A DNA stretch of 61,449 bases, from NCBI GenBank assembly GCA_035711865.1, contig DASTBT010000052.1, positions 1 to 61,449 on the forward strand, in the 5' to 3' direction. The stretch is from Actinomycetota bacterium (GTDB lineage: Bacteria; Actinomycetota; UBA4738; HRBIN12). The notes under the pieces are model-generated. The model saw only the letters and a program-made list of their open reading frames with translations. It was not told the origin of the DNA and did no database searches. Positions 20,893 through 42,012 of this stretch are shown in pieces; position 1 is the stretch's first letter; each line of letters starts with the position of its first letter. The translations under genes and the position numbers were made by a program.

Positions 20893-21956
20893 TCGAGCCC
20901 GCCTCGCTGGATGAAGTCGGCGTAGAACAGCCCCAGCCCGACGGCGACGCAGAGGCCCGCGATGATCCAGAACCGCACGATCACGGTGAACTCGGGCCAG
21001 CCGGCCAGCTCGAAATGGTGATGGATGGGCGACATGCGGAAGATCCGCCGTCCGAACCCTCGGAACGAGATCACCTGCAGGATCACCGACATCGTCTCGA
21101 TCACGAACAGCCCACCGAGGATGACGAGGAGCAGCTGGGTGTTCGTCGTGATCGCGAGCGCGCCGAGCAGACCGCCGATCGCGAGCGAGCCCGTGTCGCC
21201 CATGAAGATGCGCGCCGGGGCCGCGTTCCACCACAGGAAACCGGCCAACGCCCCCATCATGCCCGACGCGACGACGGCGTTGTCGAGCATCGCCGCGCCG
21301 TTCACATCGAAGCATCCCTGTCTCGCGATGCCTTCCGCCCCCACGCACAGGTGGCGGAACTCCCAGAACGCGATGACCACGTACGAGGCGAACACGAGGG
21401 CGCTCGACCCGGCGGCGAGCCCGTCCAGCCCATCGGTGAGGTTCACCGCGTGCGAGGAGGCGGTCAGCATCAAGAAGACCCACACCAGGAAGAAGACGCC
21501 GAGCGCGAGCGCGGTCGGGCGGATGAAGGAAAGGTTGGTCGAGATGCCGGTCTGGGAGCTCGACCGCGCCACGATCCATCCGAACAGTACCGAGACGATC
21601 GCGGTGCCACCGAACTTCTGGACCTTCGTGAGCCCGAGCGAGCGACGGTTCCGCACCTTCATGAAGTCGTCGAGGAACCCCACCAGCCCGAAGCCGACGA
21701 CCGCGATCACCAGCGCCAGCCCCACCACGGTGGGGGCTCCGCTCGTGACGCGGGCCGCGAGATACGCGAGGAGCAGCCCGACGAGGATCACGATGCCTCC
21801 CATCGTCGGCGTGCCCATCTTCTCCATGTGCGTGTGCGGACCGTCCTCGCGGATCCGCTGGCCCCATCCCCAGACGGTGAACGCCCGGATCGCGAGGGGG
21901 GTGCCGAGAAGCGTGACGGCCAAGCCGATCGCGCCCGCCACGAGGATGGAGATCAC
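20889..21956 (-). CDS. mraY: Phospho-N-acetylmuramoyl-pentapeptide transferase
   Basis: GTG at 21956 overlaps the murF stop (GTGA); 355 aa. Blocks: KMGTPTMGGIV, NLTDGLDGLA and FMGDTGSLAIGG. Confidence 0.96.
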   Translation of the reverse strand: MISILVAGAIGLAVTLLGTPLAIRAFTVWGWGQRIREDGPHTHMEKMGTPTMGGIVILVGLLLAYLAARVTSGAPTVVGLALVIAVVGFGLVGFLDDFMKVRNRRSLGLTKVQKFGGTAIVSVLFGWIVARSSSQTGISTNLSFIRPTALALGVFFLVWVFLMLTASSHAVNLTDGLDGLAAGSSALVFASYVVIAFWEFRHLCVGAEGIARQGCFDVNGAAMLDNAVVASGMMGALAGFLWWNAAPARIFMGDTGSLAIGGLLGALAITTNTQLLLVILGGLFVIETMSVILQVISFRGFGRRIFRMSPIHHHFELAGWPEFTVIVRFWIIAGLCVAVGLGLFYADFIQRGGLE

Positions 21957-34994: not shown

Positions 34995-36242
34995 TTATAG
35001 GGAGGCTTCCGGACCTGGGAACCCAGGCGCCGGGTCGGGCGGGGAGCGCCGGGTGCGATCGAGCAACGACGCCGGGGTCGCCGCGCCGCGGCCGAAGCGG
35101 TGCTCGATGCGGTCGACGGCCCGTTCGACGTCGCCCCAACGCTCCCCGCGAAGTAAAACGAGCTGCTCCGCACCGGCGGGCACCAACCCGCTTGCCTGCA
35201 CGCCGAGCAGGCGCACCCGGTGCCGTTCCCCCGGCAGGTTCCGGTAGAGCTCGGAGACCGTCTGGTAGAGGTCCGCACCGACGTCGGTCGCATCGGCCAG
35301 GGTCTTCGAACGCGTGAGCGTGGTGAACGTGGCGAGGCGGACCTTCAACGTCGCCGTGCGCGCCTGGTAACCGTCGGCGCGGAGCCTCGATGCGACCCGG
35401 CCCGAGAGCGCGAGCAACTCGCGGAGCAGCGTCTCGTCGTCGTCGAGATCGTGGTCGAAGGTCTCCTCGTGACCGACCGACTTCGGCGCCTCGTAAGGCA
35501 CCACGTCGCGAGCGTCGATGCCGTGGGAGAGCTGCGACAGGTGCCGGGCGTGCTGCTCGCCGAGCAGGCGGGCGAGGATCGGCTCGGGCGTGGCCGCGAG
35601 GTCGCCGATCGTCCGCACGCCCAAGCGCGAGAGCACCTCGCCGGTCTTCTCCCCCACACCCCACAGGCGGCCCACCGGCAACGGCTCGAGGAACGCGAGC
35701 ACGTCGTCGGCGGGCACGACGAGCTCGCCGTTCGGTTTGCAGTGGTCGCTCGCGAGCTTGGCCACGAACTTCGTCGGCGCCACGCCGACCGAGCACGTGA
35801 CCCCCACCTCACGTTCGACCTCGGCCCTGATGCGCGCCGCGATCGCACGTGGGGTCCCGAACAGCATCGACGCCCCGCCCACGTCGAGGAAGGCCTCATC
35901 GAGCGAGATGGGCTCGACGAGAGGGGTGTGAGCGAGCAACACCTCGCGGAAGCGGTTCGAATGAGCTTGGTACGCCTCGAAGTCGGGGGGCAGGAATATG
36001 CCGTCGGGGCAGAGCCTGCGAGCGCGCACGGTCGGCATCGCCGAGCGCACCCCGTATGCACGGGCCTCGTAGGACGCCGAGCTCACGACGCCGCGCCCCC
36101 CGACCCCGCCGACGATCACCGGCTTCCCGGCGAGCGCCGGGTCCTTCAGCGCCTCGACCGAGGCGTAGAACGCGTCGAGGTCGGCGTGAAGGATCGGTTC
36201 GGCTGCTCGTTCGCTCGGCAGTGCCCCCGGTGGATCGGTCAT
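34995..36242 (-). CDS. dinB: DNA polymerase IV (Y-family, catalytic residues intact)
   Basis: 415-aa ORF. Blocks: HADLDAFYASVE, SSASYEARAYGVRSAMP and SLDEAFLDV. Starts 7 nt after the dnaE2 stop. Confidence 0.94.
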   Translation of the reverse strand: MTDPPGALPSERAAEPILHADLDAFYASVEALKDPALAGKPVIVGGVGGRGVVSSASYEARAYGVRSAMPTVRARRLCPDGIFLPPDFEAYQAHSNRFREVLLAHTPLVEPISLDEAFLDVGGASMLFGTPRAIAARIRAEVEREVGVTCSVGVAPTKFVAKLASDHCKPNGELVVPADDVLAFLEPLPVGRLWGVGEKTGEVLSRLGVRTIGDLAATPEPILARLLGEQHARHLSQLSHGIDARDVVPYEAPKSVGHEETFDHDLDDDETLLRELLALSGRVASRLRADGYQARTATLKVRLATFTTLTRSKTLADATDVGADLYQTVSELYRNLPGERHRVRLLGVQASGLVPAGAEQLVLLRGERWGDVERAVDRIEHRFGRGAATPASLLDRTRRSPPDPAPGFPGPEASL

Positions 36243-36249
36243 GTCGTCA

Positions 36250-39200
36250 TCATCCCGCGGAGCCGGGGCTCGCGTGCCAGAGGGCTCGCGGCCCGGCGCC
36301 GGGGGCGGGAGCGTTCGAGCCCGGAGCCGCCCAGCCGCGGAGCGCCTCGCGCAACCGACCCTCGCCCCGGGCTCGGTGCAGGACCGAGAGGTCCCAGACC
36401 TCCTCGGCCACCACGCTCACCCCTGCGACCCCGGTTCGGCGGAGCTCCCCCGCGACCGCGAGCGCGTATCCGTGGAACACCGTCTTCGCGACCCTGGGCT
36501 GCACCGACTCGAACACCGTGACCTCGACCGGGCCGGTCGCGTCGTCGAGCGTGAGGAAGATGATGCGCTGGCCGCTGCGGATCGCCGGAGTCTGCGAGGC
36601 CACCTTCACGCCGGCGACGATCACCCCCGAGCCACCGCGCGTGCGGCGCAGATCCTTCGCCCGCGTCACTTCGAGGTCGGCGAGGACGGGCTCGAAGAAA
36701 CTCACGATGTGCCGGGTGGCGTCGAGTCCCATCACCTCGATCTCGGCGCGCACGACCTCGGCATCGGAGTAGTCCTTGAAGCGATGCCCCGCTGCGGGGT
36801 CGGCACCCATGGCGAGGGTGAGCTGGTCGCCTTCCCGCAGGGGTTCTGCGGTCATCGCCACGTACAGGTGTCGCCGGCGGGCCGGCTCGAGCGCGTCGAA
36901 CGCGCCTGCGTGGGCGAGCGCCTCGGTCACCGGCCGGCTCACGGTCGTGCGCCGCATGAAGTCGCCCACGTCGCGGAACGCGCGGTCGGCGCGCGCCGTC
37001 TGGATCGATCGGATCTCGGCGTCGCTGATGCCGTGCACGTCCTGGAGGCCGAGCCGGATACCGAAGGAGCCGGCGGTGCCGCCCTCACCCCCTGGCACCG
37101 GCTCCACCACGTACTCCGGCTCGCTCGCGTTCACGTCGAGCGGCAGGATCGCGATGCCGTGACGCCGCGCGTCGTCGAGGATCGTGCGACGCGGGTACAT
37201 GCCGGGGTCGTGGGTCAACAGGCCCGCGTACAGGTGCGCCGGGTAGTGCGCCTTCAGCCATGCGCTCTGGTAGGTCGGCACCGCGAACGCCGCCGCGTGC
37301 GCTTTGCAGAACCCGAACGAGGCGAACTGGGTCACCCCGTGCCACACCTTCACCGCCGCGTCGCGGTCCACGCCCCGGGCCGCCGCGCGCTCCACGAAAT
37401 CGGCCTCGAAGCCCGGCAGCATCTCCTCGCGGTCGAGGTGGCGCCGGATGTGGTCGGCGTAGGTCTCGGTGTACCCGGCGATCGCCGCGAGCGCCCGGAT
37501 CACCTGCTCGTGGAAGACGATCACCCCGTAGGTCTCCTGCAGCGGCCCGCGCAGGCCCGGATGGATGTAGCTCGGCCGCTCGAACGCCGATCGCCGCCGC
37601 AAGTACGGCGTGATCATGTCGGATTTCACCGGCCCGGGCCGGAACAGCGAGATGTCGACGATCAGATCTTCCCAGCGGTCGGGCTGCAGCTTCTGCAGCA
37701 GCTCGCGTTGGCCGGGCGACTCGATCTGGAAGCACCCGAGCGTGTCGGAGGCGCGGACGAGCTCGAACGTGGCGGGGTCGTCGAGCGCGATGCGGTCGAG
37801 GTCGACCTTCTCCCCCGTGGTGCGCGCGATCTCGTCGAGCGCGTGGCGCATCGAGCTCAGCATGCGCACGCCGAGGATGTCGAGCTTCAGGTAGCCGAGC
37901 AGCTCGACATCGTCCTTGTCGGCCTGGACCATTCGATGGCCGTTCGCGCTGCGTTCCAGCGGCACCCGCTCGACCAGGTCGTGGCTCGCGAGCACGATGC
38001 CGCACGGATGCAGCGCGATGTGCCGCGGGAACCCGGCCACCTTCTCCGCGACCCGGATCAACCGCTCCATCTGCTCGAAGCGCAGGTTGATGCCCGCCAG
38101 CTCTGGCAGGCGGTCGATCGCCTCGCGCAGATGCCTGGCCGAGATGTGCGGGAACGACGTCGCGACGACGCCGACCTCGACCTCGGGCAGCCCGAGCGCC
38201 TTGCCCACCTCGCGGATCGCCGAACGTGCCAGGTACGTGTCGATCATCGCGACGCAGCCCGCGCGCTCGGTGCCGTGACGGCCGAGGATCATGTCGTAGA
38301 CGTCTTCCCGCCTCGCCGACTCCACATCGATGTCGATGTCGGGCAGGTCCTCGCGCATCGGGTTCATGAACCGTTCGAACGACAGGTCGTGACGGAGCGC
38401 GTCGACGTCGGAGATGCCGGTCAGGTAGCACACGAGCGAGCCCGCCGCGCTCCCCCGGCACGCGGCGCGGATGCCCATCGCCTTCACGTCGGCGACGATG
38501 TCGGCCACGGTGAGGAAGTACGCCGCGAACCCCATGCGCCGGATCATCGAGAGCTCGTGGTGCAGCCGATCGCGCAGACGTTCGTCGACGTGCATCTCGC
38601 GGTCGTACACGCCGCGCCAGCACCGTTCGGCGAGCACGGCGTCGGCGCCGCGGCCTTGCGGCGTCGGGAAGTCGGGGAAGTGGATGCGCTCGAGCCCGAG
38701 GTCGTATCGGCACATGTCCGCGACGGCCAGGGTTCCGTCGCACAGATCGGGCCGCTCGGCGAAGAGCGCTCGCATCTCGGCTGCGGGCTTCAACCAACCC
38801 TCGGCGTTGCGGCGGGTCACGTTCGTCTCGGCGAGCGGCACGATGCGCCGTATGCACTCGAGCACGTCGGCCACGAACGCGTCGGCGGGCTCCAGGTACC
38901 GGACGGGGTTCGTCGCGACGGCGCGCACCCCGACGCGCTCGGCCAGGCGCAGCATCGACCTGATCTCGTGGGACGAGCCGCGCTCGAACCGGTGCTCGAC
39001 GCCGACGAGCAGGCGGTCGCGCCCGAACGCCTCGCGGAAGGGATCGAGCAGCCGCGCGGCGTGGTCGACGCGGCCGGCGACCGCCGCCCGCCCCGGGTGC
39101 GACCCTGGCCCGGCGATCGCGACGAGACCTGCCGCGTGCGCGCATATCTGCACCGCGTCGACCCACGGATCGCCGCGGTCGCCGAGCATGTGGGCGTCGG

Positions 39201-39531
39201 TGATCAGCCGGCAGAGGTTGGCGTAGCCGGTGTCGTCGGACGCGAGCAGCACGACGTGGGCATCGTGTTCGCTCCCCCGCCCACCCGGCGTGGGGGTTCG
39301 CACCGTGACCGATGCGCCGAGGATCGGCCGCACTCCCTCGGCCTCGCACGCTCGCACGAACCGCGCGGCGCCGTAGAGTCCGTCGCGGTCGGTCATCGCC
39401 ACGGTCGGCTCGTTCGTTCCGGCTGCTCGGCCGAGCACCCCCGCGCGGGACACGAGCTGCTCCGGCGTGAACGCGCCTTCCTTCAAGGAGAAGCACGAGC
39501 GCACATCGAGGTGCACGAACGATGCCGACAT
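36250..39531 (-). CDS. dnaE2: Error-prone DNA polymerase DnaE2 (ImuC)
   Basis: 1093-aa ORF. N-terminus MSASFVHLDVRSCFSLKEGAFTPEQLV and a pol III alpha core (FGFCKAHAAAFA). Size and lack of a C-terminal tau/beta-binding extension are typical of DnaE2 rather than DnaE1. Confidence 0.95.
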   Translation of the reverse strand: MSASFVHLDVRSCFSLKEGAFTPEQLVSRAGVLGRAAGTNEPTVAMTDRDGLYGAARFVRACEAEGVRPILGASVTVRTPTPGGRGSEHDAHVVLLASDDTGYANLCRLITDAHMLGDRGDPWVDAVQICAHAAGLVAIAGPGSHPGRAAVAGRVDHAARLLDPFREAFGRDRLLVGVEHRFERGSSHEIRSMLRLAERVGVRAVATNPVRYLEPADAFVADVLECIRRIVPLAETNVTRRNAEGWLKPAAEMRALFAERPDLCDGTLAVADMCRYDLGLERIHFPDFPTPQGRGADAVLAERCWRGVYDREMHVDERLRDRLHHELSMIRRMGFAAYFLTVADIVADVKAMGIRAACRGSAAGSLVCYLTGISDVDALRHDLSFERFMNPMREDLPDIDIDVESARREDVYDMILGRHGTERAGCVAMIDTYLARSAIREVGKALGLPEVEVGVVATSFPHISARHLREAIDRLPELAGINLRFEQMERLIRVAEKVAGFPRHIALHPCGIVLASHDLVERVPLERSANGHRMVQADKDDVELLGYLKLDILGVRMLSSMRHALDEIARTTGEKVDLDRIALDDPATFELVRASDTLGCFQIESPGQRELLQKLQPDRWEDLIVDISLFRPGPVKSDMITPYLRRRSAFERPSYIHPGLRGPLQETYGVIVFHEQVIRALAAIAGYTETYADHIRRHLDREEMLPGFEADFVERAAARGVDRDAAVKVWHGVTQFASFGFCKAHAAAFAVPTYQSAWLKAHYPAHLYAGLLTHDPGMYPRRTILDDARRHGIAILPLDVNASEPEYVVEPVPGGEGGTAGSFGIRLGLQDVHGISDAEIRSIQTARADRAFRDVGDFMRRTTVSRPVTEALAHAGAFDALEPARRRHLYVAMTAEPLREGDQLTLAMGADPAAGHRFKDYSDAEVVRAEIEVMGLDATRHIVSFFEPVLADLEVTRAKDLRRTRGGSGVIVAGVKVASQTPAIRSGQRIIFLTLDDATGPVEVTVFESVQPRVAKTVFHGYALAVAGELRRTGVAGVSVVAEEVWDLSVLHRARGEGRLREALRGWAAPGSNAPAPGAGPRALWHASPGSAG

Positions 39532-39584: not shown

Positions 39585-40274
39585 TCAGCGCTGCCAGATC
39601 GCGGGGTCGTGGGCGAAATGAACGCGGACGGGGTCGAGCCCCCGTAGGCGATCGACCGACCGTGCGTACGCGTCGGGATCTGGTGAGCTCGTTCGTCCCG
39701 ATGCCTCGGAGCCCTCGGCCCCTAGCCACTCGGCGCGGGACTGTACCGCCTGACCGGCGAGCACGATCGCACCGCCGGGTGCGTCGACGACCAACGACTG
39801 ATGCCCGGCGGTATGTCCCGGCGTCGGCACCAGCCGCATGCCCGGCGCGACCTCGGTCTCGCCGTCGAGGAGCTCGTAGGTGAGCCCCGGCACGTCGATC
39901 CACTCGGGAACCGTGTAGCCGGGCTCGTGGACCTTGGCCCACTCCGCGCGCTGCACGAAGATCGGCATGCCTCGGAGCCGGGCGTTCTGCCCCGAGTGGT
40001 CGAAGTGCAGGTGGCAGTTGGCCGCGCCGGTCACGTCGGCGAGCGAGATGCCGGCTTCCTCGAGCGCATCGTCGACCGGACGGACCCGTGGGGAGAACCT
40101 CGTCTCGACCTCGGCGTCGCCGAAGCCGGCGCCGTTGTCGAACAGGAAGATCCCGTCGGGATGCTCGACCGCGTGGCCGTACGACGGCCACCATTCCATC
40201 GCCAGGAGCTCCCGTTCCGCATCTGGCAGCCGCAGCTCGGACACCAGGAACGGGATGACTCGCACGTCGCTCAC
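39585..40274 (-). CDS. Metallo-beta-lactamase-fold hydrolase (AHL-lactonase-like)
   Basis: 229-aa ORF starting with GTG. Blocks: HLHFDHSGQ (HxHxDH), TPGHTAGH, and late His/Asp ligands HFAHD. Confidence 0.88.
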   Translation of the reverse strand: MSDVRVIPFLVSELRLPDAERELLAMEWWPSYGHAVEHPDGIFLFDNGAGFGDAEVETRFSPRVRPVDDALEEAGISLADVTGAANCHLHFDHSGQNARLRGMPIFVQRAEWAKVHEPGYTVPEWIDVPGLTYELLDGETEVAPGMRLVPTPGHTAGHQSLVVDAPGGAIVLAGQAVQSRAEWLGAEGSEASGRTSSPDPDAYARSVDRLRGLDPVRVHFAHDPAIWQR

Positions 40275-40290
40275 GGCACCACGCTACCTT

Positions 40291-40362
40291 CATGCATGCG
40301 CTACCGCTTCGCTGCATGAGCGCGTGCATGCATGCGCTACCGCTTCGCTGCTTGAGCGCGTG
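40291..40362. repeat. Tandem direct repeat, 2 x 36 bp (35/36 identical)
   Basis: 40291-40326 is catgcatgcgctaccgcttcgctgcAtgagcgcgtg. 40327-40362 is identical except A to T at unit position 26. Each unit opens with the palindrome CATGCATG. A partial extra copy (acgctacc) lies at 40281-40288. The repeat sits between the 86-aa gene stop (40365) and the MBL start (40274). Confidence 0.95.
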
Positions 40363-40364
40363 CG

Positions 40365-40625
40365 CTAGTCCCACAAGCGCTCCATGTGCCAGCGGTCCCT
40401 GCCGCGGTCGAAGTAGAGATCCCAGACCGCGCCGCCGCGCGCTTCCACGCGCCAGTACTCGCGATCGCGGCCGTCGGACCACCATCGGCCCTCGATCTTC
40501 CACCGGCCGATCACGTCGGCGACCTCGTAGCGGCGGCCCCGCCACTCGAACGCGCTCGGCATGCCGGTGTCACGTTCGACCCTGATCTCCTCGTCGAATC
40601 GCTTCGTCACCGTGACGGTCCTCAC
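40365..40625 (-). CDS. 86-aa Trp/Arg-rich protein resembling the C-terminal domain of ImuB (DUF6504-like)
   Basis: ORF starting with GTG. Sequence: FEWRGRRYEVADVIGRWKIEGRWWSDGRDREYWRVEARGGAVWDLYFDRGRDRWHMERLWD. First gene downstream of the LexA box. Family assignment is from memory of ImuB C-termini (WW...R.Y[YW]RVE...W.L[FY].D...RW.[LM]...[FW]) and has not been searched. Confidence 0.6.
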   Translation of the reverse strand: MRTVTVTKRFDEEIRVERDTGMPSAFEWRGRRYEVADVIGRWKIEGRWWSDGRDREYWRVEARGGAVWDLYFDRGRDRWHMERLWD

Positions 40626-40653: not shown

Positions 40654-40669
40654 TCGAACGTATGTTCGA
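40654..40669. promoter_or_regulatory. LexA operator (SOS box)
   Basis: TCGAAC-GTAT-GTTCGA is a perfect 6+4+6 palindrome matching the actinobacterial/Gram-positive consensus TCGAAC-N4-GTTCGA. It lies 29 nt upstream of the 86-aa gene start. Confidence 0.75.
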
Positions 40670-40679
40670 GCGGAGGACG

Positions 40680-40709
40680 AATGTACGCCCGGGTTCCGAC
40701 ATCCGTCAA
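40680..40709 (-). promoter_or_regulatory. Candidate SOS-regulated promoter
   Basis: Reading the minus strand: TTGACG (40709-40704), 18 nt, TACATT (40685-40680). The LexA box begins 10 nt downstream of the -10 element. Confidence 0.45.
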
Positions 40710-40746
40710 GGCGGGTCGGGGCGAGGAGAGGCCTATCATCTGGAGC

Positions 40747-42012
40747 ATGACCACCGTGGCCGATCCGAACGAGCAGCTCACGCCCACCGCCCTCCCGACC
40801 TCCACCGAGCAGCAGATCGAGCTCGTCGACCACTACTCCGCGCACAACTACCACCCGCTGCCCGTCGTGGTCGCCGAGGCCGAGGGGGCGTGGGTCACCG
40901 ACGTCGAGGGCAAGCGCTATCTCGACATGCTGGCCGCCTACTCCGCGCTCAACTTCGGCCACCGCCACCCCGACCTGATCGCGGCGGCCCATGCACAGCT
41001 CCACCGGCTCACGCTCACGAGCCGGGCGTTCCACAACGACCGGATGGGGCTGTTCTGCCGGGATCTCGCCGAGCTCTGCGGCATGGAGATGGTGCTGCCG
41101 ATGAACTCGGGTGCCGAGGCGGTCGAGACCGCCGTGAAGACCGCCCGTCGTTGGGGGTACGACGTCAAGGGTGTGCCCGAGGACCGCGCGAAGATCGTCA
41201 CCTGTGAGGGGAACTTCCACGGGCGCACGATCACGATCGTGAGCTTCTCGACCGACCCGAGCGCCAAGGGCGGGTTCGGGCCGTTCACCCCCGGGTTCGA
41301 GACGGTGCCCTACGGCGACACCGAGACGCTCGAGACCGCGCTCGCCGACCCCGACGTGGTCGCGTTCCTCGTCGAGCCGATCCAGGGCGAGGCGGGGGTG
41401 ATCGTGCCGCCCGAGGGGTACCTGCGACGGGCCAGAGAGCTCTGCGACGCGAACCGCGTGCTGCTGATCGCCGACGAGATCCAGTCGGGGCTGGGGCGCA
41501 CCGGTCGCACGTTCGCGTGCGACCACGAGGGGGTCCGCCCAGACGTGTACGTCGTCGGCAAGGCGCTGGGCGGCGGCATCGTGCCCCTGTCGGCGGTCGT
41601 CTCGACCCGCGACGTGCTGGGGGTGTTCCGTCCGGGCGAGCACGGATCGACGTTCGGCGGCAACCCGCTGGCGTCCGCGATCGGCCTCGAGGTGCTGCGG
41701 CTCCTCGGCACGGGCGAGTTCCAGCGACGATCCGACGACCTCGGAAGCGCGTTGATCGCCCGGCTGCGTGCCGAGGCCCCGCCGGGGGCGGTCGTCGAGG
41801 TGCGCGGCAAGGGCTTGTGGGTCGGCATCGAGCTCTCGTCCGAGGCCGCGCCGGCTCGCGAGGTCTGCGAGCGGTTGATGGAGATGGGCGTGCTCGCCAA
41901 GGACACGCACGAGACCACCGTGCGGCTCGCTCCCCCGCTCTGCGTGACGCCGGAGGACCTGGATTGGGCGGCGGACCGGATCCTCACGGCCCTGGCCGAG
42001 CGGCTCGGCTGA
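40747..42012 (+). CDS. rocD: Ornithine aminotransferase
   Basis: ORF 40561..42012. The ATG at 40747 (MTTVADPNEQ...) fits family length. An alternative ATG at 40681 has GGAGG 4 nt upstream. Blocks: HNYHPLP, LNFGHRHP, DEIQSGLGRTG, GKALGGG and STFGGNPLA. Confidence 0.92.
   Translation: MTTVADPNEQLTPTALPTSTEQQIELVDHYSAHNYHPLPVVVAEAEGAWVTDVEGKRYLDMLAAYSALNFGHRHPDLIAAAHAQLHRLTLTSRAFHNDRMGLFCRDLAELCGMEMVLPMNSGAEAVETAVKTARRWGYDVKGVPEDRAKIVTCEGNFHGRTITIVSFSTDPSAKGGFGPFTPGFETVPYGDTETLETALADPDVVAFLVEPIQGEAGVIVPPEGYLRRARELCDANRVLLIADEIQSGLGRTGRTFACDHEGVRPDVYVVGKALGGGIVPLSAVVSTRDVLGVFRPGEHGSTFGGNPLASAIGLEVLRLLGTGEFQRRSDDLGSALIARLRAEAPPGAVVEVRGKGLWVGIELSSEAAPAREVCERLMEMGVLAKDTHETTVRLAPPLCVTPEDLDWAADRILTALAERLG

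What the first reader, a model, noticed from the sequence alone, without database searches (positions are those of the whole stretch)
40365..40625. Free-standing ImuB-C-terminal-like domain protein as first gene of the SOS operon
- The 86-aa product is dominated by Trp/Arg motifs: FEWRGRRYEV...GRWKIEGRWWSDGRDREYWRVEARGGAVWDLYFDRGRDRWHMERLWD.
- From memory, ImuB proteins end with a very similar pattern: WW, R-[DE]-Y-[YW]-RVE, an aromatic-L-[FY]-R/D segment, and a terminal RW-x-[LM]-x-x-[LI]-[FW].
- In mycobacteria, the ImuB C-terminal region mediates contacts with DnaE2 and ImuA'.
- A stand-alone copy encoded with DnaE2 and an active DinB would amount to a split adaptor-plus-polymerase arrangement.
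Basis: inference. Interest (0 to 1): 0.62.

Follow-up and report, generated by a model that had tools for sequence, protein, structure and literature searches.

The report
Stand-alone ImuB-C subunit of SOS mutasome
The small tryptophan-rich gene is a real, conserved, free-standing copy of the ImuB C-terminal domain that heads a LexA-controlled imuB-C / hydrolase / dnaE2 / active Y-polymerase gene cluster in an uncultured actinobacterium, an arrangement already described in the literature, so it is a correct but ordinary finding.

Summary
The ORF lies on the minus strand. Its conserved start is probably the GTG at 40610 (81 aa), not the GTG at 40625 (86 aa).

- **Family:** it matches Pfam DUF6504 (E 1e-14). 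A profile of 71 stand-alone homologues aligns to the last 91 residues of a canonical ImuB (hhalign 96%, E 2e-9).
- **Gene status:** it is under purifying selection. It is predicted as a confident six-strand all-beta domain with no similar solved structure.
- **Regulation:** a perfect LexA box (40654-40669) lies just downstream of a promoter-like site. An equivalent box precedes the gene in 85 of 85 related loci.
- **Linkage:** dnaE2 follows on the same strand in 60 of 61 relatives, and the Y-family polymerase follows dnaE2 in 47 of 47.
- **Polymerase:** it keeps its catalytic acidic residues and has a RecA-N-terminus-like tail.
- **Genome:** I found no ImuB and no ImuA.

This is the published "DnaE2B-[ImuB-C]-PolY-RecA" module (NAR 2026), built on stand-alone ImuB-C proteins described in 2013 and 2019. 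What I add is the start-codon correction, the universal LexA box, and a variable cargo slot between imuB-C and dnaE2, here holding an MBL hydrolase.

The parts
40365..40625 (-). imuB-C: stand-alone ImuB C-terminal domain protein (DUF6504). The longest ORF is 86 aa. The conserved start is probably the GTG at 40610, giving 81 aa.
   Evidence: ORF. Pfam PF20114 at E 1.1e-14. hhalign to the ImuB C-terminus at 96.3%. Codon-position bias and start-codon conservation. AlphaFold model with pLDDT 89 and six beta strands.
40654..40669 (.). LexA (SOS) box TCGAACGTATGTTCGA, a perfect palindrome. It lies 28 nt upstream of the GTG at 40625 and 43 nt upstream of the GTG at 40610.
   Evidence: The same motif lies upstream of this genome's own lexA (two boxes) and recA. 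A box with at most 1 mismatch lies upstream of imuB-C in 85 of 85 related loci, within about 70 nt in 84.
40680..40709 (-). Promoter-like site, TTGACG - 18 nt - TACATT. Its -10 element ends 10 nt upstream of the LexA box.
   Evidence: Consensus scan. Two sites were found in 6.1 kb against 0.1 expected in shuffles. This is a consensus match only.
40620..40623 (-). GAGG Shine-Dalgarno-like element, 9 nt upstream of the conserved GTG at 40610.
   Evidence: Read directly from the sequence.
40291..40363 (.). 36-bp x 2 tandem duplication that fills the imuB-C/MBL spacer. The minus-strand RNA folds strongly but has no U tract.
   Evidence: TRF: 2.0 copies, 97% match. Fold energy -41.4 kcal/mol. Single-copy core in relatives L012, L019 and L032.
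39585..40274 (-). MBL-fold metallo-hydrolase (lactonase-like) occupying the variable slot between imuB-C and dnaE2.
   Evidence: Pfam Lactamase_B at E 7.8e-13. The NCBIfam AiiA hit is far below its cut-off. The gene is present in the same position in 17 of 72 related loci, never with its own LexA box.
36250..39531 (-). dnaE2, the error-prone C-family DNA polymerase (1093 aa).
   Evidence: Pfam PHP, DNA_pol3_alpha, finger, HHH_6 and OB domains. NCBIfam NF004225 'error-prone DNA polymerase' at 780 bits, below that model's 939-bit cut-off. It lies downstream of imuB-C in 60 of 61 related loci.
34995..36242 (-). Catalytically intact Y-family polymerase (DinB/Pol IV type, 415 aa). Its tail carries a clamp-motif-like QLVLL followed by a RecA-NT-like motif, VDRIEHRFGRGAATPASLL.
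   Evidence: Pfam IMS, IMS_HHH and IMS_C. NF003015 at 395 bits against a 367-bit cut-off. Alignment with ImuB shows DLDAFYASVE and SLDEAFLDV retained and the tail aligned to the ImuB RecA-NT motif. The genome's own RecA N-terminus is LQQIEKQFGKGAVMKLG. This gene follows dnaE2 in 47 of 47 loci.

Best explanation
The gene encodes a free-standing ImuB-C domain, a small (about 81 aa) all-beta, Trp/Arg-rich protein. It is the non-catalytic adaptor subunit of an SOS-induced translesion ('mutasome') module.

Shown:
- The gene belongs to the ImuB-C family.
- It is under purifying selection.
- It always carries a LexA box.
- It is almost always followed by dnaE2 and a catalytically intact Y-family polymerase.
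- In this window one LexA box in front of imuB-C serves the whole four-gene cluster.

Inferred:
- After DNA damage, RecA-stimulated LexA cleavage derepresses the promoter at about 40680-40709, and imuB-C, the MBL gene, dnaE2 and polY are co-transcribed.
- By homology with the ImuB C-terminal domain, ImuB-C then docks on the PHP domain of DnaE2.
- The Y-family polymerase contributes the beta-clamp contact and, through its RecA-NT-like tail, binds RecA in place of the missing ImuA.
- Together they form a DnaE2-[ImuB-C]-PolY-RecA complex that performs error-prone lesion bypass.

This is a 'split ImuB' in which the polymerase half has stayed active.
For: - **Family membership:** Pfam DUF6504 at 55 bits. 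The 71-homologue profile aligns to the last 91 residues of S. meliloti ImuB, which is encoded next to ImuA (hhalign 96.3%, E 1.7e-9).
- **Structure:** a confident six-strand beta model (pLDDT 89.2, pTM 0.78) with no PDB neighbour (best Foldseek E 0.27) and no PDB sequence match. This agrees with the published description of ImuB-C as a beta-barrel of novel fold that contacts the DnaE2 PHP domain (PMC12926913).
- **Regulation:** a perfect LexA box at 40654-40669 lies behind a promoter-like site. The same motif lies in front of this genome's lexA and recA. The box is conserved in 85 of 85 relatives.
- **Co-regulation under rearrangement:** there is no second box when imuB-C and dnaE2 are adjacent (0 of 20) or separated only by MBL-type inserts (0 of 17). 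A second box sits directly before dnaE2 in 22 of 27 loci with other large inserts.
- **Linkage:** dnaE2 lies downstream in 60 of 61 loci and polY follows dnaE2 in 47 of 47. In the one unlinked case, dnaE2 (87% identity) is still present on another contig of the same genome.
- **Polymerase:** PolY is active-type and carries a RecA-NT-like tail.
- **No ImuA/ImuB:** the genome has one DUF6504 match, three Y-family genes of which none is fused to DUF6504, and only RecA hits the ImuA model.
[quoted passage not shown] The Geobacter lexA-imuB-C-polY operon is damage-induced and transcribed as one unit (PMC6511836).
Against: - No physical interaction was tested here.
- Nobody has shown genetically that a stand-alone ImuB-C is needed for mutagenesis. 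In Deinococcus only imuY and dnaE2 were deleted.
- The genome is a 92%-complete MAG, so the absence of ImuA/ImuB is not absolute. The ImuA model is also insensitive: it passes its cut-off in none of the control genomes.
- A strong hairpin-forming 36-bp duplication lies between imuB-C and the MBL gene and could reduce read-through.
- Stand-alone ImuB-C genes elsewhere occur without DnaE2, for example with Pol IV, Ku/ligase or SplB. DnaE2 binding therefore cannot be the family's only role.
Confidence: 0.8

Rival explanations
1. ImuB-C is a general SOS damage sensor or DNA-binding recruiter rather than a dedicated DnaE2 adaptor. It would recognise damaged or stalled DNA and recruit whichever repair enzyme is at hand (the Aravind 2013 proposal). 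Its linkage to dnaE2 in this lineage would be one of several contexts.
For: - Stand-alone ImuB-C genes elsewhere sit with Pol IV alone, UmuC/YolD, Ku plus ligase, SplB photolyase-like enzymes or SRAP (PMC3765255).
- The gene keeps its own LexA box even when foreign genes separate it from dnaE2, or when it lies on a different contig.
- Arg makes up 16 of 81 residues, and conserved Trp residues could stack on bases.
Against: - The calculated pI is about 6.6 (18 basic against 18 acidic residues), so it is not a typical basic DNA binder.
- In this lineage dnaE2 is linked in 60 of 61 loci and is present in the one exception.
- Published AlphaFold models place ImuB-C on the DnaE2 PHP domain.
Confidence: 0.12
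2. ImuB-C acts as a brake rather than a bridge. It would be an SOS-induced small inhibitor or gatekeeper that occupies the DnaE2 PHP surface or the RecA/PolY interface. That would limit mutagenic synthesis until damage is severe.
For: - It is transcribed first and sits nearest the promoter.
- A strong hairpin follows it in this window, which could make it more abundant than the polymerases.
- Because the Y-family partner is catalytically active, a passive scaffold is less obviously needed.
Against: - In ImuB the homologous C-terminal region is required for mutasome function and binds DnaE2 and ImuA' (summarised in PMC6511836).
- The hairpin duplication is specific to this genome. Close relatives have one copy or none.
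- There is no precedent for an inhibitory ImuB-C.
Confidence: 0.04
3. The ORF is a chance open frame in 70%-GC DNA and the Trp/Arg pattern is compositional.
For: - High-GC genomes carry many spurious long ORFs.
- The query also gives repeated weak hits to PQQ/beta-propeller-like repeat proteins, which reflect composition.
Against: - Differences concentrate at the third codon position, and synonymous changes outnumber non-synonymous ones by 1604 to 740.
- The Pfam match is at twice the cut-off score.
- 215 species genomes encode a relative, with conserved synteny and a conserved LexA box.
- The AlphaFold model is confident.
Confidence: 0.01

Closest known systems
DnaE2B-[ImuB-C]-PolY-RecA association module of Actinobacteria (Nucleic Acids Res 2026, PMC12926913; representative Tessaracoccus lapidicaptus)
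   Same: [quoted passage not shown]
- A separately encoded ImuB-C family protein.
- A DnaE2, in a genome without ImuA or ImuB.
- An actinobacterial host.
All of these were verified here.
   Different: - The host is an uncultured soil Actinomycetota lineage, not a cultured Tessaracoccus.
- Gene order is imuB-C first, with an MBL-fold hydrolase gene inserted between imuB-C and dnaE2.
- I could not compare the sequences directly with the paper's representative.
- I did not place this DnaE2 on the paper's DnaE2A/B/X tree.
Canonical ImuA(ImuA')-ImuB-DnaE2 mutasome (Caulobacter, Pseudomonas, Mycobacterium, Sinorhizobium)
   Same: - SOS/LexA control.
- DnaE2 as the error-prone polymerase.
- An ImuB-C domain homologous to this protein (hhalign 96.3% to the S. 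meliloti ImuB C-terminus).
- A RecA-NT-like motif in the Y-family component.
   Different: - There the ImuB-C domain is fused to a catalytically dead Y-family domain, and a RecA paralogue (ImuA) is present.
- Here ImuB-C is a separate 81-aa protein, the Y-family polymerase keeps its catalytic residues, and no ImuA is found.
[quoted passage not shown]
   Same: - A stand-alone ImuB-C of about 80 aa is encoded with DnaE2 and a Y-family protein.
- There is no ImuA.
- The cassette is RecA/LexA-controlled.
- tblastn of the window protein finds Deinococcus DUF6504 genes next to DnaE2 and Y-family genes.
   Different: - ImuY is predicted to be inactive, whereas the polymerase here is active-type.
- lexA is part of that operon, whereas here lexA lies elsewhere (contig C108).
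- Gene order differs: there imuB-C lies between imuY and dnaE2.
- Sequence identity is only about 30-37%.
Geobacter sulfurreducens lexA-imuB-C-polY operon (GSU0042-like; PMC6511836, PMC3765255)
   Same: [quoted passage not shown]
   Different: There is no DnaE2 in that operon, lexA is included, and the host is a deltaproteobacterium.

Membership tests
ImuB-C / Pfam DUF6504 (PF20114) | Significant match to the family profile above the curated cut-off. | tested here: met
   E 1.1e-14, 55 bits against a 24.2-bit cut-off, covering residues 7-84. The genome scan gives 53.8 bits.
ImuB-C / Pfam DUF6504 (PF20114) | Homology to the C-terminal region of bona fide ImuB proteins. | tested here: met
   The stand-alone profile A1 aligns to residues 427-517 of the 518-aa S. 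meliloti pSymB Y-family protein, which is encoded next to an ImuA family protein (hhalign 96.3%, E 1.7e-9). PF20114 hits the same ImuB at residues 439-514. tblastn gives E 7e-3.
ImuB-C / Pfam DUF6504 (PF20114) | Conserved signature: WRGR..Y.V, a WW pair, R.Y.RV, a C-terminal invariant Trp and a terminal D, in an all-beta architecture. | tested here: met
   In the 71-sequence alignment W79 is invariant, and W42, W48, W49 and D86 are at least 90% conserved. The model has six strands at pLDDT 89.
DnaE2B-[ImuB-C]-PolY-RecA module (NAR 2026) | ImuB-C is encoded as a separate protein, not fused to a Y-family domain. | tested here: met
   The open frame is 93 codons from stop to stop. The Y-family gene lies 4 kb away and ends after its RecA-NT motif.
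DnaE2B-[ImuB-C]-PolY-RecA module (NAR 2026) | The associated Y-family polymerase has an intact active site. | tested here: met
   DLDAFYASVE and SLDEAFLDV are retained, whereas the aligned ImuB has a gap and TDGLFLDI. NF003015 'DNA polymerase IV' scores above its cut-off. That these are the catalytic motifs rests on established knowledge of DinB.
DnaE2B-[ImuB-C]-PolY-RecA module (NAR 2026) | The Y-family polymerase carries a RecA-NT-like motif in its C-terminal tail. | tested here: met
   VDRIEHRFGRGAATPASLL aligns with the ImuB motif VDKVSARFGPGCLMQATL. It also resembles the genome's own RecA N-terminus, LQQIEKQFGKGAVMKLG.
DnaE2B-[ImuB-C]-PolY-RecA module (NAR 2026) | The genome lacks ImuA and ImuB. 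| tested here: met
   There is one DUF6504 match, and it is stand-alone. None of the three Y-family genes is fused to DUF6504. The ImuA model hits only RecA, below its cut-off. Caveats: the MAG is 92% complete and the ImuA model is insensitive.
DnaE2B-[ImuB-C]-PolY-RecA module (NAR 2026) | The DnaE2 belongs to the DnaE2B phylogenetic group. | not tested
I showed only that the protein's best NCBIfam hit is the error-prone DnaE2 model (NF004225, 780 bits, below its 939-bit cut-off).
DnaE2B-[ImuB-C]-PolY-RecA module (NAR 2026) | The components form a physical complex. | not testable with these tools
   The structure tool takes one natural chain only. The literature reports AlphaFold-Multimer and AlphaFold 3 models above threshold for representatives of every module type.
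LexA (SOS) regulon member | An actinobacterial LexA operator TCGAAC-N4-GTTCGA in the promoter region, matching the genome's own lexA/recA operators. | tested here: met
   The box at 40654-40669 is perfect. lexA has two boxes and recA one box of the same type. The box is conserved in 85 of 85 relatives. LexA binding itself was not tested.
Canonical ImuB | An inactive Y-family domain fused to ImuB-C and encoded with ImuA. | tested here: not met
   The protein has 81-86 residues and no Y-family domain, and there is no ImuA. It is a homologue of one ImuB domain, not an ImuB.

The most novel reading that the evidence does not exclude
The module may be a true two-polymerase machine rather than a 'split ImuB' scaffold. 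The free ImuB-C would dock on DnaE2 and on the RecA-bound tail of a catalytically active Pol IV-type enzyme, and would hand the primer end from one polymerase (insertion opposite the lesion) to the other (extension).

A related possibility is that ImuB-C has a DnaE2-independent, SOS-wide role. This would explain why it keeps its own LexA box wherever it is displaced from dnaE2. The recurrent MBL hydrolase in the operon slot could also be a functional accessory rather than a passenger.
Probability: 0.15. Interest if true: 0.55.

Novelty: already known. Interest (0 to 1): 0.22.

Why it matters
DnaE2-based mutasomes drive damage-induced mutagenesis, including the emergence of drug resistance in mycobacteria. 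The role of the ImuB C-terminal domain is the least understood part of that machine.

Naturally split systems such as this one give the domain as an 81-residue, probably soluble protein. That makes binding, structural and genetic tests simpler than with full-length ImuB. The point has already been made in the literature, so this locus adds another clean example rather than a new concept. It also adds a large uncultured soil actinobacterial clade in which 21 of 22 sampled genomes of the same order carry the gene.

The comparative result that a LexA box accompanies both imuB-C and dnaE2 through every rearrangement is useful supporting evidence that the two must be co-expressed.

Tried and rejected
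1. **PDB sequence search.** Only chance-level hits (E at least 0.05), so no solved relative exists.
2. **Foldseek of the model against PDB.** Nothing at E of 0.001 or below, and the best TM-score normalised to the query was 0.44. SH3-like or lipocalin-like assignments are not supported.
3. **The exhaustive phmmer search** listed mostly stand-alone proteins. No full-length ImuB appeared in the top 150. Long multi-stretch hits (P0142, P0152, P0196 and others) turned out to be PQQ/beta-propeller-like repeat proteins or to have no Pfam family, so I rejected them as composition or repeat artefacts. The link to ImuB had to be shown by profile comparison instead.
5. **ImuA search with NF033429.** It hits only RecA below the cut-off. 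The model also fails its cut-off in every control genome, so this negative result is weak.
6. **A conserved extra partner in the slot between imuB-C and dnaE2.** Naive ORF calling in 70%-GC DNA was noisy. The only recurring cargo is the MBL hydrolase, with an aminotransferase and a uracil-DNA-glycosylase-family gene on the opposite strand in a few loci. No universal fourth subunit emerged.
7. **An internal LexA box in the window.** The 1-mismatch site at 38984 lies about 550 nt inside the dnaE2 coding region. I treated it as chance.

Full report
**What is there**

The finding's coordinates hold an 86-codon ORF, but on the minus strand. Read on that strand, the region shows in order:
- a promoter-like TTGACG-18-TACATT (40709-40680);
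- ten bases later, a perfect 16-bp palindrome, TCGAACATACGTTCGA as read on the minus strand (40654-40669 in plus-strand coordinates);
- the ORF (40625..40365);
- a 90-nt spacer made almost entirely of a 36-bp tandem duplication;
- an MBL-fold hydrolase gene (40274..39585);
- a 53-nt spacer;
- dnaE2 (39531..36250);
- seven bases later, a Y-family polymerase gene (36242..34995).

**Is it a gene?**

Yes.
- It matches Pfam DUF6504 at 55 bits against a 24.2-bit cut-off.
- There are 218 close homologues in the protein collection, all carrying PF20114, and 215 species-level genomes encode a relative.
- Against 73 ungapped homologous genes, nucleotide differences fall 779/501/1819 on codon positions 1/2/3. 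Synonymous codon changes outnumber non-synonymous ones 1604 to 740.
- A start codon at the position of residue 6 is present in all 73 homologues, but one at residue 1 in only 15. GAGG lies 9 nt upstream of that second GTG. The product is therefore most likely 81 aa, beginning at 40610.

**Is it ImuB-C?**

Yes.
- A profile built from 71 diverse stand-alone homologues (27-83% identical to the query) aligns end to end with the last 91 residues (427-517 of 518) of the Sinorhizobium meliloti pSymB Y-family protein. The hhalign probability is 96.3% and E is 1.7e-9. That protein is annotated next to an ImuA family protein.
- Pfam DUF6504 hits the same stretch of that ImuB.
- The family consensus (WRGR.Y.V ... 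W ... WW ... R.Y.RV ... LY.D ...
- With that alignment AlphaFold2 gives a confident six-strand all-beta domain (pLDDT 89.2, pTM 0.78).
- Nothing in the PDB resembles it by fold (best Foldseek E 0.27) or by sequence. This agrees with the 2026 description of ImuB-C as a beta-barrel of novel fold.

**Regulation**

- The palindrome is the TCGAAC-N4-GTTCGA operator type. The same genome has two such boxes upstream of its lexA and one upstream of its recA.
- In 85 of 85 related loci with enough upstream sequence, a box with at most one mismatch lies upstream of the imuB-C start, within about 70 nt in 84 of them.
- The window has no other strong box in front of the MBL gene, dnaE2 or polY. The only 1-mismatch site lies deep inside dnaE2.

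**Linkage and operon logic**

I compared 80 loci from uncultured Actinomycetota MAGs.
- dnaE2 lies downstream on the same strand in 60 of 61 loci with at least 7 kb of room.
- The Y-family gene follows dnaE2 in 47 of 47.
- In 20 loci imuB-C and dnaE2 are directly adjacent (7-150 nt apart), which looks like the basic arrangement.
- The space between the two genes is a variable slot. It holds the MBL gene in 17 loci, as in the window, and unrelated genes in others, often on the opposite strand.
- A second LexA box directly before dnaE2 is absent in all 20 adjacent loci and all 17 MBL-type loci. It is present in 22 of 27 loci with other large inserts.
- So whenever the operon is broken, dnaE2-polY acquires or retains its own operator. 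When it is not broken, as here, the single box before imuB-C serves the whole cluster.
- In the one genome where dnaE2 is not downstream, it is still present on another contig at 87% identity.

**The partners**

- The window's Y-family polymerase keeps DLDAFYASVE and SLDEAFLDV, which by established knowledge of DinB contain the catalytic acidic residues. The aligned ImuB lacks them.
- After the little-finger domain comes QLVLL, which is clamp-motif-like (my inference). Then comes VDRIEHRFGRGAATPASLL, which aligns with the ImuB RecA-NT motif and resembles the genome's own RecA N-terminus.
- The polymerase ends about 25 residues after that motif, whereas ImuB continues on to its ImuB-C domain.
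- The genome (2.7 Mb, 92% complete) has one DUF6504 match and three Y-family genes, none fused to DUF6504. It has one RecA and no ImuA-like hit other than RecA itself.

**Most likely mechanism**

Inferred from homology and the literature, not shown here:
- LexA cleavage derepresses the cluster.
- ImuB-C binds the PHP domain of DnaE2.
- PolY supplies clamp and RecA contacts.
- The resulting DnaE2-[ImuB-C]-PolY-RecA assembly carries out error-prone bypass.

The near-neutral pI of about 6.6 fits a protein-protein adaptor better than a basic DNA binder. The DNA-damage-sensor idea of 2013 is not excluded.

**Comparison with the literature**

- Stand-alone ImuB-C proteins were defined in 2013, including operons with DinB and with DnaE2 (PMC3765255).
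- In 2019 ImuA-less variants were catalogued that combine active or inactive Y-family polymerases, stand-alone ImuB-C and/or DnaE2 (PMC6511836).
- The 2026 survey explicitly lists an Actinobacteria-only "DnaE2-[ImuB-C]-PolY-RecA" module with an active PolY. It reports AlphaFold complex models above threshold (PMC12926913).
- In Deinococcus the related cassette is RecA/LexA-induced, and imuY and dnaE2 are required for UV mutagenesis (PMC8072749).

- The strand and start-codon corrections.
- The universal LexA box and its behaviour under rearrangement.
- The variable slot, with a recurrent MBL hydrolase.
- The gene's near-universality in this uncultured order: 21 of 22 sampled genomes, and 116 of 301 across the phylum.

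**Limits**

No multimer modelling was possible. The genome is an incomplete MAG.

**Verdict**

This is a real feature, correctly interpreted, of a known kind, and of low novelty.

Noticed in passing
window 40291-40363 (also G000 contig C18:9130-9205; loci L012, L019, L032): The 36-bp x 2 tandem repeat after the imuB-C stop is a duplication of a spacer element, GCGCTCAAGCAGCGA[AC]GCG[GA]TAGCGC. Relatives L012, L019 and L032 carry it once, and L011, L016, L018 and L031 lack it. A similar core, again as a pair spaced 36 bp apart, sits just upstream of a gene on contig C18. The spacer RNA folds to -41 kcal/mol without a U tract, so it may act as an attenuator or a small dispersed repeat.
   Followed up: partly
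window 39585-40274 (-): An MBL-fold, lactonase-like hydrolase lies between imuB-C and dnaE2 with no LexA box of its own. The same gene holds this position in 17 of 72 related loci. It may be a passenger or an accessory of the SOS cluster, and its function is unknown.
   Followed up: partly
G000 contig C121:38877-39341 (+): A second Y-family polymerase in the genome has its own LexA-like box (GCGAACATACGTTCG) immediately upstream and a RecA-NT-like tail (LDEVQDRFGPAAVTRAVLLG). A third, on C51:7070-7501, has no C-terminal tail.
   Followed up: partly
G000 contig C108:5208-5257 and 21690-21705: The genome's lexA has two LexA boxes upstream and its recA has one. This confirms the operator motif used to call the box at 40654-40669.
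   Followed up: yes
loci L015, L029, L033, L042, L045, L047, L054, L057, L075, L089, L090: In these relatives about 1.3 kb, probably one membrane or MFS-like gene, is inserted between dnaE2 and the Y-family polymerase gene. This is a second variable slot in the cluster.
   Followed up: partly
window 40737-42012 (+): A divergent class-III aminotransferase gene (ornithine aminotransferase-like) shares the intergenic region with imuB-C. In six relatives a homologous gene sits on the opposite strand between imuB-C and dnaE2, so it appears to move around this locus.
   Followed up: no
proteins P0142, P0152, P0196, P0224, P0250: Long proteins (455-1012 aa) match the C-terminal half of the query in 6-8 separate stretches. 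Two of them (P0152, P0196) show PQQ/beta-propeller-like repeats; the other three have no Pfam family. I judged the hits a Trp/Arg/Gly-Asp composition or beta-hairpin repeat artefact, not ImuB-C homology.
   Followed up: partly
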